Shown piece after piece: positions 10,911 through 62,160 of a DNA stretch of 64,000 nt; positions within the stretch are counted from its first letter, which is position 1; each line of letters opens with the position of its first letter. A program made the translations under genes and the position numbers. A model generated the notes under the pieces. The model ran no database searches. It saw only the letters and a program-made list of their open reading frames with translations, and was not told the DNA's origin. Source of the stretch: Isurus oxyrinchus (Eukaryota); assembly GCA_026770705.1 (NCBI GenBank), contig JANJGN010000038.1:6448001-6512000 (forward strand), written 5' to 3'.

Positions 10911-11320
10911 AGCATTTATTACCCATCCCCAGGTAAGGGCAGCAGGTTTCCCTCCGTAAAGGACATTAGTGACCCAGATGGGTTTTTACAACAATCTCCA
11001 ATAGTTTCATGGTCACCATTGGACTTTTAATTCCAGATTTTTTTATTACATTCAAAATCAGTAACATTGTGGATCCTGTCAAAGTCCTGGTTCAGTTGTA
11101 AATATATAAAATCCCTCTCCTTCCTCCTGCACTTCCCACCCACTCCCCACTCCCCACCCCCCCTCCACCGCCCACCCACAGCCTCCCTCTCTCTCGCTCT
11201 GCCTCTCTACATAGAGGCCAGGGTCTCATGTAGGCCTTGACTGGGTTGCAGGTTCCCTTCCCTGAAGGACATTAGTGAACCAGCTGTTTATTTATGACAA
11301 TCCAGCAGTTTTCATGGTCT
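10911..11320 (-). mobile_element. Two SINE fragments resembling the SlmI/MetaSINE type (10911-11050 and 11215-11320)
   Basis: Antisense of ...AAAAACCCATCTGGTTCACTAATGTCCTTTAGGGAAGGAAA.... The family name comes from my recollection of the consensus, not from a search. Confidence 0.55.
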
Positions 11321-11551
11321 CTTTTTTCCTACTGCCGGCCCCACAAATGACCAGATTCATTCAGCTCAATTTCACAACCTGCCTTTGTGTTTTTGTGGGT
11401 TCTCTCTCACTCCCTTTTTTCTGTTTTAAATCAGTTTCACAGGGTGTTAGAAGGGGAGGATTTGCAGTCGGGAAACTCAATCCAAACATCACATCAGGAT
11501 CTGATGGAGTTACTCAATTTACCTTAAACTGAGTATCTTCAGATTTTGAAC

Positions 11552-12424
11552 ATGGAGGGAAAAAGCACCTTTCACAGTGCGGAGAAACCGAACACGTGTT
11601 CTGTATGCGGATAAAGCTTCAGCCGATCATCTGGCCTGTCAAAACATAAATGCAGTCACAATGGGGAGAAACCATGGAAATGTGGTGTGGGAAGGGATTC
11701 GAATCCCCATCTCATCTGGGAACTCATTGACGCACTCACACTGGGGAGAGACCGTTTACCTGCTCTGAGTGTGGGAATGGATTCACTCAGTTACACCAAC
11801 TCCTGAGACACCAGCGAGTTCACACCGCTGTGAGACCATTCACCTGCTCAGAGTGTGGGGAAGGATTCACCCAGTTTCACCACCTCCTGAGGCATCAGAA
11901 AATTCACACTGGGGAGAGGCCATTCACCTACTCCAAGTGTGAGAAGGGCTTCACTCAGATTCACCACCTCCTGAGACACCAGCAAATTCACACTGGGGAG
12001 CGGCCATTCAACTGCTCTGAGTGTGGGAAGGGATTCATTAGTGTATCTAACCTGCTGACACGCCAACACACTCACACTGGGGAAAGACCGTTCACCTGCC
12101 CCAAGTGTGGGAAGGGATTCACTCATTTATCCAACCTGCTGACACCAGCGAGTTCACAGTGGGGACAAACCTTTTAGATGCCCAGATTGTGGGAAGTGTT
12201 TTAAATGTTCCAGGTATCTGATGTCCCATGAACATGTTCACACTGATGAGAGACTGGTCAGGTGCTCACACTGCGGGTCTGGGTTCAGGTAGTCATCCGA
12301 TCTCACTAAACACCAGCGAATTCACACTGGGGAGAAGCCATTCACCTGCTACAAGTGTGGGAAGGGATTCACTCAGACATCCAATGTGCTGAGACACCAA
12401 CGTGTTCACAAGCAACTACAGTGA
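11552..12424 (+). pseudogene. Tandem C2H2 zinc-finger pseudogene (about 10 fingers)
   Basis: Repeated [16 protein letters not shown] units with in-frame stops and frameshifts (about 11690 and 12145). Acceptor TTTCACAG ends at 11442. Confidence 0.9.
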
Positions 12425-12599
12425 TTGGGCTTTTCTCTTACTCACATCCAGGACTGAGGCATGTTCAATAGGTCGGTTTCTGTTGATCTTAATAAATCCC
12501 AGCCCAGTTATAGGGGGTAAATTATGTTATTGAAGCGCTTTGTGTTAAACAGCATATTGATTTTTTTTAGTATCTCTGATACAAGTTAGTGTCCCTCGA

Positions 12600-58119: not shown

Positions 58120-59370
58120 TGCTCTATCTGTATGATTGCAGTGCTGTTAATAAAGTCAGTGTGAGACAATCTGTTGTCAGCTTGATTACCTGGTGTCTGA
58201 AACCACACAATTCAATATTTAGAGTCAACAAGATGAACAAGGAAACGCCTCACGGCCCAAAACTCCAGCTCGATATTCACAGGAGAAAGTCTGTTATCTA
58301 ACACCTCGAGTGGACGGAACAGAGGAAGACCCCAACTGTAAGGAACCCTCGAAAATTTGTAAATATCTTTCAGATGCTGACAGGTTCCAGCTGTGTTTCC
58401 CTCACATCGAAGTGAATGGAAGGTGAGAGCGTGGTTATTCTAGAAATATAAAAAACGCTAGTTAGAGCACAGTCCAGTTCTATTCAGCACTTCACAGGAA
58501 GGATGTGATCACACTGGAGAGGGCACAGAAAAGATTTATCTGGATGATGCCAGGACTGGTGATTTTAACCCTGAGGAGGATTTGGAGAGGTGGGTGTTGG
58601 TTTCTTGGAATAGAGGATGCTGAGGAGACGTTTAATTGATGTGTATAAAATGATGAGGGTCCCAGATAGATTGGATAGGAAGGACCTATTTCATTAACAG
58701 AGAGGTCAGTAACCAGGGGGCTGAGATTTAAAGTAATTGGTGGGAAGATTAGAGGGGAGTTGAGTAATGTTTTCACTTAAAGGGTGGTGGGGAACTTTAA
58801 CTCACTATCTGAAAGGACGGTAGAGGCAGAAATACTCACATTTAAAAAGGACTGGGATATGCACCAGTCGTGCTGTAATCTACAAGACTACAGACCAAGA
58901 GCTGGAAAGTGGGATTGGACTGGATAGCTCATTTTCAACCAGTACAAACATGATGGGCTGAATGGCCTCCTCTGTGCTGTAAATTTCTCTGATTCTGTGC
59001 TGACAAGTGGTCCTCATGTTTTTATCCAAGACAGGCTTCAGCCCAGTCATTTGCTCCAAGTGTTGATGTGATGGGTCAAGTGAAGAGGTGCCAGGTATCT
59101 GGAGCAGCAGGAGCAGTAAATAAAATCGAGATTTCAGTGAATACTGATAAAGTTTATCAGTATCTTGTTTCATTTTAATAACTTCTGCTGAATGTGGTCC
59201 TCTCCCAGTGCCAGCATATCGGATCAGAGCCACCATGGAAAAGGAGTTTGACACCCCTGAGACAGACAATGTCAAACGGATCTTCAGTATCTCTGTAACC
59301 TCTTCCAGCCCCACAACCCTCTGTGTAAATACAAGTTGCTGGTGTTGGATTACACCCTGAGATAGACAAT
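58120..59370 (+). repeat. Segmental duplicate of 16340-17600
   Basis: Colinear, including the same CR1 insertion at 58455-59000. Confidence 0.9.
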
Positions 59371-61054
59371 GTCAACCTGATTCCCCTCATCCACCAGCAC
59401 AGCAACTTCTTCACAAAACACAAACAGGTTTTCCAAGGTGTGACATTCTTTTCCAGAATCCATATTGAGGATCTCTAATGGATCCTTCTCTCCCCCAGTG
59501 ATCAGAAACAGAATCAGAAACCTTCAAGCATCTTCCCTGTGATTGTGGCCACACTGATGGGCCTGTCATTCCCTGGCTCTGATTTGTCCCCAATTTGGAA
59601 AGTGCGAATACCATGAGCTACTTTCCGATCTCAGGGAACAATCGCTGACTCTGTTGAGCTGCTGAAGATACGGACAAGAGGTTCACAGGGCACCCGTCAC
59701 ATCTCTTTAAACCCCCTTGGGTGGATATCATTTGGACCTGGAGCACCATCTAGTTTGAGATTTCCTATTTTCTCCAGGGTGACAATCCCTTTCTATTTTA
59801 ATATTGATGATGTTATTGTCGACAGCACATCCCACAGCTGGAATCTGAGCATCATCCACAGGAGTGCAGGCTGATGTGAAAGTCATTTAACAGCTCAGTC
59901 ATAGCCTGGCAATCTGATTCAATCTGTCCTCAACTGTCTTTCAGTGGCTCGAAACGACCTTTAACCATCTTCCCACTCCTGATGGAGCTGGGAAAGCTTT
60001 GCTGTTATTTCCACAATTGTTCACCATCTTCTTTCCCAAAGATCTCTTCTCTAATGGCTGCTTTTCTCTCCCTCAATTGTGGGTGATATTGGTCCCAGTT
60101 CTCCTGGACACTGAATTCATCTTGTTCCAACTGGGTTCAATGTCCGGCAGTTCAGGGAGTCGGGAATCATTCACCCCTAGACCTACACTGAGAGGTAAAG
60201 CCCCAGACAGTCCCTCAGTAAGGATTCCTCTGGTTCCTCACCGTATATTAGTCAGGATACTGAAACACTGCTTTCTCCCAATCCACTCCTGGAGGGCCCA
60301 CTCCCCAAGCCTCCAACCTGCAGCAGGGTCAGTGCTGGAGCTACACAGCGGGAGTGATCCCAGAATAACTTTGAGGATCGCAACCACATGGATGTTCAGG
60401 GTTGAGTATTTTTAGTTATCCTGGTGTCTAACACACATCAATAAAACAGGGAACTCCAGGAAATGTGCTGCAGGTCTTTCTTTATCTGTTGTATAATTCT
60501 CCCAGCAGTTAACAGGTACCTCTGAAATTATCTACCAGCTATTTTAATACAGAATTTTGCAAATTTATTTCAAATGGGTTTAATTCTGCCTTAAAGTAAT
60601 CGATTTTGGTCTGTCACATACACGGTAATTCTTCATAGAATAATTAGCACAGTCATTTTCAGACTGGAAATTTAAACCTGATTTTACCCTTCAGTCAGAA
60701 ACAGATCACAGTTTTACACCAATCTCTGATTTGACAACACCGTTGTTCCTCCTGACTCTAAACACAGTTGTAAAGGAGCCTTTTGATCCGTGTCTAGGAG
60801 CTCTGAACCATGGAAGAGAGCGGCTGGGACACATTTCTTACACACCTCAGGATTAACCCACACGGGGGCTTTGCTGTCAGTGAAGAGAGATGAGAAAGAC
60901 CAAAGTGCTGTTTGTCCCTCTCAGTGTGACCCTGAGGGACTGTGTCCAGGCTGAAGTTCTGTTCCTGCTGTGTGATCCACGACCCAGATTGTCCTTCCTG
61001 AGCTCCAGCCAGGTGATGTTAAACACCCAGGTGGGAAAGGCAAAAATCCACAAC

Positions 61055-62160
61055 GTGTTTAAAATAAATCTGATTTATTTCACATTTATCCAGAATATTA
61101 AACTTCAGTTCAGTTACAAGGATTATGAACATCAACAGAAACAAACTCTAACTGTCAGAATGGTTCAGTTCTGGATGTGGTTAACAACAGCAATAACAGC
61201 AGAATCCAATTCCTGCAGCCGTTTGTGAACTCACTAGGGTGTCAATAGGTGAGACGACTGAGTGAATCTCCTCCCACACACATAGCAGGTGAATAGCCTC
61301 TCCCCAGCATGAATGTGTTCGTGTCTCAGCACCCATTTTGCTTTTAAATCTCGGCTCATGGTCAGAACTTTGAAAAGCTTTCTGACCCATGTAAACAAGT
61401 CGATAGGTATATATGAAAGCAAAATACTGCATATGTTGGAAATCTAAAATTATAAACAGAAAATGCTGGAAAAGCTCAGCAGGTCGGACAGCATCTGTGG
61501 AGAGAGAAACAGAGTTAACGTTTCAAGTCAGTATGAATCCTCTTCAGAACTAATGGGTATGGAGGTGGGATGAAGGAGTGAATCTCTCCCAAACAGAACA
61601 GATGAATGGTCTCCTCCCCAGTGTGAGTGCACTGATGAACACTGAGATCACATGATCACTTGAACCCAGTCCCACAGAGAGAGCACTTAAACAGGCTCTG
61701 GTCAGTGTGAACACGTTGATGGAACATCAGCTCCACAGAACTTTTATAACTCTTTCTGCAATCTACACATTTAAAAGATCTTCCATCAGTGAGAATCCCT
61801 CCTCACATATGGAGCAGGTGAATGACCTCTCCCCAGTGTGAACTCACTGGTGTTGCAGCAGGATGGACAATCACCTGAACCTATACCCGCAGTGAGAGCA
61901 GATGAATGGAGTGGAACCGGAATGAATGCACTGGTGAACCATCAATGAATGTGGGTTTTTAAAGCTCTTGTCACAGTGTAAACAGGTGTTTCAGCAGGAT
62001 GGAAGAACTAGTGAATCGACTTCCACACTTGGAGCAGGTGAATGGCCTCTCCCCAGTGTGAATTCGCTGGTGCACAGTGAGATTAAGTGATTGCCTGAAC
62101 CCAGTCCAACAGAGAGAGCATCTGAGCAGTCTGTTGTCAGTATGAACACATACTGATATA
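61055..62160 (-). pseudogene. Decayed C2H2 zinc-finger gene + shared 3'UTR; PLE tail inserted at 61420-61551
   Basis: [37 protein letters not shown]. The 3'UTR is the reverse complement of the 22715-22880 type. Confidence 0.85.
61513..61551 (-). ncRNA. Minimal hammerhead motif with canonical core
   Basis: Reverse complement: AGTT CTGAAGA GGATTCA TAC TGACTT GAAA CGTT AACT. Confidence 0.65.

What the first reader, a model, noticed from the sequence alone, without database searches (positions are those of the whole stretch)
11215..62160. Effector-less tandem C2H2 ZNF cluster in rapid birth-and-death amid young retroelements: candidate counterpart of KRAB/FiNZ-type TE control
Seen: at least eight ZNF units (11.5, 21.9, 25.8 relic, 27.3 relic, 44.1, 48.3, 55.1 and 61.5 kb). 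Subsets of them share a promoter cassette, the acceptor module TTTTACAG-GG.TTAGAAGGGGAG...AAACTCAAACCAAA and a 3'UTR (...GTTCACAAGTGACTGCAG...AATCACATCCAGGACTGAACCATGTTCATT). Translation appears to start directly at the fingers, the upstream exons look non-coding, and only one ORF is intact. The finger scaffold is near-invariant while helix residues vary ([49 protein letters not shown]). Known: tetrapod KRAB-ZFPs and cyprinid FiNZ-ZNFs form such clusters and repress TEs through an N-terminal domain. Inference: this is a lineage-specific, fingers-only family that may act by occlusion or by recruiting cofactors through the atypical first finger ([14 protein letters not shown]). Function cannot be read from sequence.
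Basis: partly seen in the sequence, partly recalled or inferred. Interest (0 to 1): 0.72.

Follow-up and report, generated by a model that had tools for sequence, protein, structure and literature searches.

The report
Block-duplicated shark finger-only zinc-finger genes
This stretch of shark-type DNA is one copy of a recently multiplied ~65-kb block of genes for proteins made only of DNA-gripping zinc fingers, with no known silencing domain; their zinc-binding frame is conserved while some DNA-reading residues change fast, so they likely form a turning-over set of repeat-binding regulators, but what they bind is untested.

Summary
Confirmed: eight ZNF units, shared acceptor, 3'UTR and promoter-like cassette, one intact ORF (21880-22506, 7 fingers). 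The genome is elasmobranch-like, with thousands of family candidates on a few contigs. Correction: the units are not independent. Nearly the whole window is a segmental duplication, colinear at ~98% with three sister loci checked; the 21.9-kb gene has 17 near-identical copies; the 48.3 and 55.1 units, broken here, are intact in some sisters; the retroelements predate the duplications. 'Effector-less' holds on genomic grounds: the frame from the shared acceptor is blocked in 32 of 36 and 20 of 20 intact genes, the leader evolves neutrally as protein (omega ~0.9), and the genome's single KRAB match looks like PRDM9. Scaffold residues are under purifying selection; helix +3/+6 give omega ~2 in the 21.9 subfamily (p 0.002, post hoc), 1.3-1.8 elsewhere, none in a dead unit. 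The lead finger's contact residues drift, which weakens the 'cofactor finger' idea. Splicing, expression of this copy and TE binding were not shown. Shark ZNF counts are published; this scan noted the same family earlier in at least four other genomes.

The parts
3377..64000 (+). Segmental-duplication block (runs on to at least window-equivalent 70 kb) carrying all eight ZNF units, retroelements, tRNA relics and a satellite
   Evidence: Colinear at about 95-99% (mostly ~98%) with G000:C38:3.25-3.32 Mb and C42:5.62-5.69 Mb, and with both 20-kb pieces fetched at C38:7.02-7.07 Mb
11214..12500 (+). ZNF unit 11.5, class A type (start MEGK.., extra finger before the PWKC finger); pseudogene
   Evidence: Frameshifts and stops; 0 of 29 loci at >=93% identity, this one included, has an ATG ORF with more than 3 fingers; flat omega near 1
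19290..19800 (+). Promoter-like / first-exon cassette of unit 21.9 (CCAAT-, ETS-, NRF1- and YY1-like motifs; motif names recalled)
   Evidence: Motif scan; 1287 first-look candidates in the genome; start site and donor not shown
21509..21879 (+). Shared splice acceptor and 363-nt non-coding leader: acidic-reading linker plus three decayed fingers, three upstream ATGs
   Evidence: frame from acceptor blocked in 20 of 20 class B genes with the acceptor found; 4337 first-look candidates in the genome
21880..22506 (+). Intact finger-only ORF, 208 aa, 7 C2H2 fingers (class B, starts MEKPWKC), strong start context
   Evidence: the 25 Pfam families shown (of 34) are zinc-finger, zinc-ribbon or small DUF models, none KRAB, SCAN, BTB or SET; 16 of 17 near-identical copies keep a 6-7-finger ORF
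22507..22887 (+). Decayed tail fingers and shared 3'UTR
25769..26071 (+). Relic unit: acceptor and leader only
27106..27885 (-). Relic unit: promoter-like cassette and two tandem acceptor modules, no fingers
   Evidence: 77% to 46986-47601
44110..44790 (+). 5'-truncated unit: three fingers and an interrupted 3'UTR, next to a Penelope-like fragment
46986..49232 (+). ZNF unit 48.3 (cassette, tandem acceptors, fossil-finger leader, class B start); frameshifted here
   Evidence: 24 of 30 loci have an ATG ORF with >=5 fingers from the class B start, one with 9
54807..56300 (+). ZNF unit 55.1 (class A-derived start); frameshifted and shortened here
   Evidence: 8 of 30 loci have an ATG ORF with 8-15 fingers
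61057..62149 (-). Decayed ZNF unit with shared 3'UTR
209..2045 (-). Penelope-like retroelement (RT and GIY-YIG); related copies at 7950-10631 (+) and 43327-44046 (-)
   Evidence: at matching positions in sister blocks
6283..7435 (-). Broken endogenous-retrovirus fragment (env and integrase C-terminal pieces)
   Evidence: Pfam TLV_coat and MLVIN_C; inside the duplicated block
51070..54638 (-). Broken LINE with RT (CR1-type label recalled, not tested)
   Evidence: RVT_1 match; shared with sister block A, largely missing in B

Best explanation
The window is one copy of a duplicated block of elasmobranch-type tandem zinc-finger genes whose surviving members have finger-only reading frames behind a blocked leader, and these proteins likely act as a fast-turnover set of sequence-specific DNA binders, probably aimed at repeats or transposons. 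Shown: new genes arise by duplication of blocks of 65 kb or more that copy genes and resident retroelements together; copies then gain or lose whole 84-bp fingers, change helix residues, or die by frameshift; zinc ligands and core residues are under purifying selection; the leader after the shared acceptor is not read into the protein in most genes. Inferred: the genes are spliced at that acceptor and translated from the ATG in strong context; faster change at +3/+6 reflects selection for new binding specificity. Most speculative: with no KRAB, SCAN or BTB domain, a bound protein would work by occluding the site or by recruiting partners through fingers or, in class A, through the conserved N-terminal segment.
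For: Block colinearity at 3 of 3 sister loci examined; 17 copies of the 21.9 gene at >=98%, 11 on one contig in both orientations. Finger-number and frame differences between sisters. Leader blocked in 32 of 36 class A and 20 of 20 class B intact genes; alternative acceptors near the start are pyrimidine-poor in class B (0-10 of 19, mostly 6-7, vs 13-14) and mixed in class A (0-12 vs median 12); 130 of the 150 best genomic matches to the leader hold a stop; leader omega 0.86-0.90 against 0.2-0.4 for the N-terminus after the ATG. One KRAB match in the genome, on another contig, PRDM9-like by recalled resemblance; 0 of 149 BTB and 0 of 150 scored SCAN matches on the main ZNF contigs; 0 of 18 chondrichthyan protein hits carry KRAB, SCAN, BTB or SET; the 25 database proteins that read the leader in frame share no upstream domain. 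Ligand omega 0.01-0.4 in living subfamilies; +3/+6 omega 2.2 (p 0.0016) in the 21.9 subfamily and 1.5 (p 0.0012) in diverse class A arrays, 1.0 in the dead 11.5 unit (same pattern by counting).
Against: No splice junction, start site, protein or binding site was observed. The a-priori contact set (-1,2,3,6) exceeds 1 by likelihood only in the 21.9 subfamily (1.5, p 0.022); it is 0.8, 1.25 and 1.0 in the 55.1, 48.3 and class A sets, and the +3/+6 grouping was chosen after seeing the data. Position +2 is conserved and -1 is mostly Gln, so the repertoire is less diverse than a four-position arms race would give. Finger-level trees from 72 nt and conversion between fingers can distort omega; fingers of broken ORFs show the same +3/+6 excess. 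Many recent copies are already broken: 23 of 41 loci of the 21.9 subfamily keep five or more fingers. 4 of 36 class A genes have an open leader, and several other sharks have gene models that read it. Only 150 of 4267 SCAN candidates were scored. Copies on small contigs may be alleles rather than paralogues.
Confidence: 0.6

Rival explanations
1. Mostly passive expansion: a duplication-prone region amplifies whatever it holds; a minority of genes keep a fold by purifying selection while contact residues are simply unconstrained, with no conflict with transposons.
For: Dead units, relics, retroelements and satellite are copied along with the genes; unit 11.5 is dead in 29 of 29 loci; contact omega is near 1 in three of four living sets; stop codons and ligand changes are common among recent copies.
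Against: +3/+6 omega above 1 in two sets by two methods and not in the dead unit; near-zero ligand omega in diverse intact arrays; ZNF ORF counts track retroelement counts across animals (PMC10547256 abstract).
Confidence: 0.25
2. The family has a short, unrecognised N-terminal effector like FiNZ: either the acidic-reading leader itself in the members where it is open, or a small upstream exon joined through another acceptor.
For: The leader reads as an acidic ~36-residue peptide in frame with the fingers in class A; it is recognisable in at least eight shark species' gene models and two of them begin at it; 4 of 36 intact class A genes have it open; FiNZ is a 28-residue acidic peptide on its own exon (PMC10547256 section 4).
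Against: Blocked in most intact genes, length varies by non-multiples of three in class B, omega 0.86-0.90, no shared upstream sequence in the database models. It may be the fossil of an older coding region, but it is not a live domain for most of the family here.
Confidence: 0.1
3. The proteins are ordinary developmental or self-regulating transcription factors, or bind RNA or satellites, and have nothing to do with transposon control.
For: No target evidence at all; older maternal FiNZ-ZNFs were argued to have non-TE roles (PMC10547256 passage); arrays of satellite lie in and beside the block.
Against: Extreme copy turnover and loss fit poorly with fixed developmental roles.
Confidence: 0.15

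Closest known systems
Young KRAB-ZFP clusters of mouse (Bruno et al. 2025 preprint, PMC11952569; passages read)
   Same: Expansion by large segmental duplications holding several genes; TEs inside the cluster multiplied by duplication rather than by new insertion; finger arrays diversify.
   Different: No KRAB exon here; no target or repression shown.
FiNZ-ZNFs of cyprinids (Wells et al. 2023, PMC10547256; abstract, section 4, passages and rows of Supplemental Data 1 read)
   Same: Hundreds to thousands of lineage-restricted tandem ZNF genes packed into a few repeat-rich regions, finger array in one exon, signs of positive selection.
   Different: FiNZ genes carry a conserved coding N-terminal exon; here the leader is blocked. 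The paper counts shark ZNF ORFs (703-3586 in the shark and ray rows seen, 475 in Callorhinchus) but its main text has no hit for 'chondrichth', 'cartilag' or 'catshark'.
Lineage-specific poly-ZF expansions, including genes with no annotated N-terminal domain (Emerson and Thomas 2009, PMC2604467; passages read)
   Same: Tandem arrays, recent paralogues, faster change at helix contact positions.
   Different: There, selection is spread over -1, 3 and 6 and domain-less genes were left as possibly mis-annotated; here the signal is at +3/+6 and the lack of a fused domain is supported by the blocked frame.
Annotated shark 'zinc finger protein 239-like / XlCGF-like' genes in RefSeq and UniRef
   Same: Same family: same lead finger, leader and array types.
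   Different: Automatic names only; N-termini of the models are heterogeneous and no function is attached.

Membership tests
Tandem C2H2 poly-ZF genes | Five or more tandem C-x2-C-x12-H-x3-H fingers with TGE(K/R)P linkers | tested here: met
   7 fingers in 21880-22506
Tandem C2H2 poly-ZF genes | Clustered paralogues with birth and death | tested here: met
KRAB-ZFP | N-terminal KRAB domain | tested here: not met
   One KRAB match in the genome, on C34, not linked to this family; frame from acceptor blocked
KRAB-ZFP | TRIM28-dependent repression of bound TEs | not testable with these tools
   Needs binding and knockdown data
SCAN- or BTB-ZF | N-terminal SCAN or BTB domain | tested here: not met
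   No listed match on the main ZNF contigs (0 of 150 scored SCAN, 0 of 149 BTB); none in 18 chondrichthyan hits. SCAN scoring covered 150 of 4267 candidates
FiNZ-ZNF | FiNZ sequence itself | not tested
   No FiNZ model or tool-given sequence was used
FiNZ-ZNF | A conserved coding exon spliced in frame onto the finger exon | tested here: not met
   Blocked in 32 of 36 and 20 of 20 genes; leader omega ~0.9. Genomic test only; no transcript seen
TE-targeting ZNF families (works-like claim) | Positive selection at DNA-contact residues | tested here: inconclusive
   +3/+6 above 1 in two of four living sets; the full contact set above 1 in one of four
TE-targeting ZNF families (works-like claim) | Expression in germline or early embryo | tested here: inconclusive
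   Contigs of four probable RNA runs from related organisms cover the exon, but they pool paralogues and cannot show level, strand or tissue
TE-targeting ZNF families (works-like claim) | Binding to and repression of TEs | not testable with these tools
   No binding predictor or ChIP data available

The most novel reading that the evidence does not exclude
Sharks run a transposon-control system of thousands of zinc-finger proteins that carry no repressor domain at all: new specificities are minted by 65-kb block duplications and finger shuffling, and silencing is delivered by occlusion or by a partner that docks on the fingers or on the conserved class A N-terminus. That would be a third, domain-free vertebrate solution beside KRAB and FiNZ, and a candidate for the state before KRAB was captured.
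Probability: 0.3. Interest if true: 0.8.

Novelty: new variant of a known kind. Interest (0 to 1): 0.46.

Why it matters
How animals without KRAB use their large ZNF repertoires is open. Sharks have among the larger repertoires and genomes rich in retroelements, yet my eight literature searches (listings only, library limited to open PMC and bioRxiv) turned up no description of this family's layout. The block structure gives a ready test set: near-identical copies that differ by single helix residues or whole fingers, and two natural protein classes with and without the conserved N-terminus. The value is limited by the absence of any functional evidence and by the fact that clustered, fast-evolving ZNF families are a familiar theme.

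Tried and rejected
RNA evidence: contigs of four probable RNA runs laid on 17500-24500 cover the stretch, but none of the 15 joints shown (327 not shown) was a GT-AG junction into 21517; contigs pool paralogues from related organisms, so neither splicing nor level could be read. The splice structure remains open. Position-based allele counting gave a strong contact excess, but part of it came from misaligned 6- versus 7-finger copies; I relied on the finger-level analyses. Per-partition IQ-TREE estimates on 3-4 codons were too noisy and were replaced by a shared-rate likelihood. Stop-codon readthrough or selenocysteine in the fossil fingers was rejected: the stops are a mix of TGA, TAA and TAG with frameshifts. 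A word-based protein search with the leader found only the query. The ESM Atlas could not read the protein. Random 50-kb samples gave 13 units in 400 kb, all in 3 of 8 blocks, too patchy for a gene count; the candidate numbers are not copy numbers. No structure or complex prediction was run, as no partner is proposed. Assembly artefact was considered: 11 copies on one contig with distinct variants argue against it, though copies on small contigs may be allelic. The larger supplementary archives of PMC10547256 were not read and may hold shark-specific analyses.
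Full report
Observation. A six-frame scan and self-comparison find finger arrays at 11.6, 21.9, 44.1, 48.3, 55.2 kb (+) and 61.2-62.1 kb (-), and acceptor-only relics at 25.9 (+) and 27.3 kb (-). 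The shared acceptor, 3'UTR and promoter-like cassette are real, at 70-85% identity between units. All seven quoted helices are present; five belong to the 21.9 gene. Only 21880-22506 (208 aa, 7 fingers) is an ATG-led ORF with five or more fingers here.

Context. The window lies on a 14-Mb contig of a 4.98-Gb genome. The proteins that share the leader and lead finger are from sharks, so the genome is elasmobranch-like. First-look candidates number 22043 for the first two fingers, 4337 for the acceptor region and 1287 for the cassette, with the best matches on C38, C42, C26, the end of C20, C49 and small contigs; these are not copy numbers. Random sampling found 13 units in 400 kb, in 3 of 8 blocks.

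The window is a duplicated block. Sixteen other loci match the 21.9 gene's acceptor region at 98% or more, ten of them on the same contig in both orientations, and align over the 10 kb fetched. For three I fetched more: two are colinear with window 3.4-70 kb at mostly ~98%, and the third matches over both 20-kb pieces taken. The Penelope-like copies, the retroviral fragment and the LINE sit at matching positions in sisters, so they inserted before the duplications. Sisters differ by whole fingers and frameshifts: 16 of 17 close copies of the 21.9 gene keep 6-7 fingers, 23 of 41 loci in the wider subfamily keep five or more; unit 48.3 has five or more fingers from its start in 24 of 30 loci; unit 55.1 has 8-15 in 8 of 30; unit 11.5 is dead in 29 of 29 (each set is the best matches of a capped search, not the whole subfamily). 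This is the mode described for young mouse KRAB-ZFP clusters (PMC11952569, passages).

Is there an effector? Two protein classes exist. Class A starts MEGK about 109 nt after the acceptor and has an extra finger before the PWKC finger; class B, like the 21.9 gene, starts at the PWKC finger about 363 nt after the acceptor, behind three decayed fingers. The frame from acceptor to start codon is blocked in 32 of 36 intact class A genes and in 20 of 20 class B genes where the acceptor was found (5 more had none found); class B leader lengths vary by one or two bases. Of the 150 best genomic matches to the leader, 130 hold a stop. As protein the leader evolves neutrally (omega 0.86-0.90), whereas the 12 residues after the ATG are constrained (0.2-0.4). 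The genome gives one KRAB match, on another contig, resembling PRDM9 by recall, which fits the statement that whale shark has only PRDM9 in this group (PMC11603059, passage) and that KRAB families are missing in cartilaginous fishes (PMC8455134, passage). BTB and the scored SCAN matches avoid the ZNF contigs. A profile of the leader finds 25 proteins among 1.84 billion; their upstream parts are unrelated to one another. Against this: four class A genes have an open leader, two shark models begin at it, alternative acceptors in class A are not excluded, and no transcript junction was seen.

Selection. Fingers were pooled per subfamily and analysed by nearest-neighbour counting with context-dependent rates from introns and by a codon likelihood with shared synonymous rate. 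Zinc ligands: omega 0.3, 0.4, 0.2 and 0.01 in the 21.9, 55.1, 48.3 and diverse class A sets; 0.65 (not significant) in the dead 11.5 unit. Contacts -1,2,3,6 together: 1.5 (p 0.022), 0.8, 1.25, 1.0; dead unit 0.65. Positions +3/+6, grouped after seeing the data: 2.2 (p 0.0016), 1.25, 1.8 (p 0.1), 1.5 (p 0.0012); dead unit 1.0. Position +2 is conserved throughout. This is moderate, subfamily-dependent evidence for diversifying selection, weaker than the pattern at -1, 3 and 6 reported for mammalian expansions (PMC2604467, passages), and open to distortion by conversion between fingers.

The lead finger. It has canonical spacing, with Trp at the usual aromatic position and Pro at +1. In 35 class A genes its contacts give omega ~1.25 and its other residues ~0.4; the most conserved non-array parts are the class A N-terminus (0.2) and the first half of the extra finger (0.15), both absent from class B proteins. 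So the lead finger behaves like a DNA-reading finger; a docking role is not excluded but has no special support here.

How it most likely works. Shown: block duplication, finger gain and loss, frequent death, constrained scaffold, blocked leader. Inferred: spliced non-coding first exons, translation from the strong ATG, sequence-specific DNA binding, selection for new specificity in some subfamilies. Speculative: TE targets and the means of repression. The link to TEs rests on analogy and on the cross-species correlation of ZNF and retroelement counts (PMC10547256, abstract), whose data table already lists 703-3586 ZNF ORFs for the sharks and rays I looked up.

Novelty. Clustered, fast-evolving ZNF families are a known kind; a family of this size with no fused effector is a variant I did not find described in eight searches (listings only). 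PMC10380595 (passages) and PMC11620358 (abstract) added nothing on sharks. This scan's own notes record the same family in at least four other genomes, which is not independent support; what this window adds is the 65-kb block amplification, the sister-copy comparison with a dead unit as control, and the test of the leader. Verdict: real, ordinary in kind, unusual in lacking an effector, function unshown; interest 0.46.

Noticed in passing
window 28000-43000: A finger-free stretch of mutually similar repeats with tRNA relics: tRNA-Ser(GCT)-like at 37199-37272 (41.5 bits) and a weaker one at 32483-32566; looks like a decayed tRNA cluster carried inside the duplicated block.
   Followed up: partly
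window 63152-64000 and G000:C38 just beyond: 34-bp satellite array (to about window-equivalent 66.8 kb, shared with sister blocks) and a 75-bp array about 34 kb further on.
   Followed up: no
window 21637-21684: A 15-codon upstream ORF in the fossil-finger leader ends at the same stop as gene models from Pristiophorus and Heterodontus (P0121, P0132): an old shared stop, possibly a conserved translational brake or just slow decay.
   Followed up: partly
L186-L200: Many class B genes have an opposite-strand acceptor module about 2.4 kb upstream, suggesting head-to-head pairs on a shared promoter.
   Followed up: no
G000:C42:5.67 Mb (sister block B): A deletion removing most of the LINE and the 5' part of unit 55.1 leaves a 392-codon open frame with 12 fingers, a possible new gene made by deletion.
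   Followed up: no
L262, L264, L266, L269: Class A genes on C26 with an open leader and 5-12 fingers; the best candidates for a still-translated acidic N-terminal peptide.
   Followed up: partly
G000, genome-wide: 4267 SCAN-like candidates scattered over the large contigs, many with stops; probably retrotransposon capsid relics (interpretation recalled, not tested).
   Followed up: no
window 209-2045: Penelope-like copy with a 467-codon open RT frame and the GIY-YIG part in another frame.
   Followed up: no
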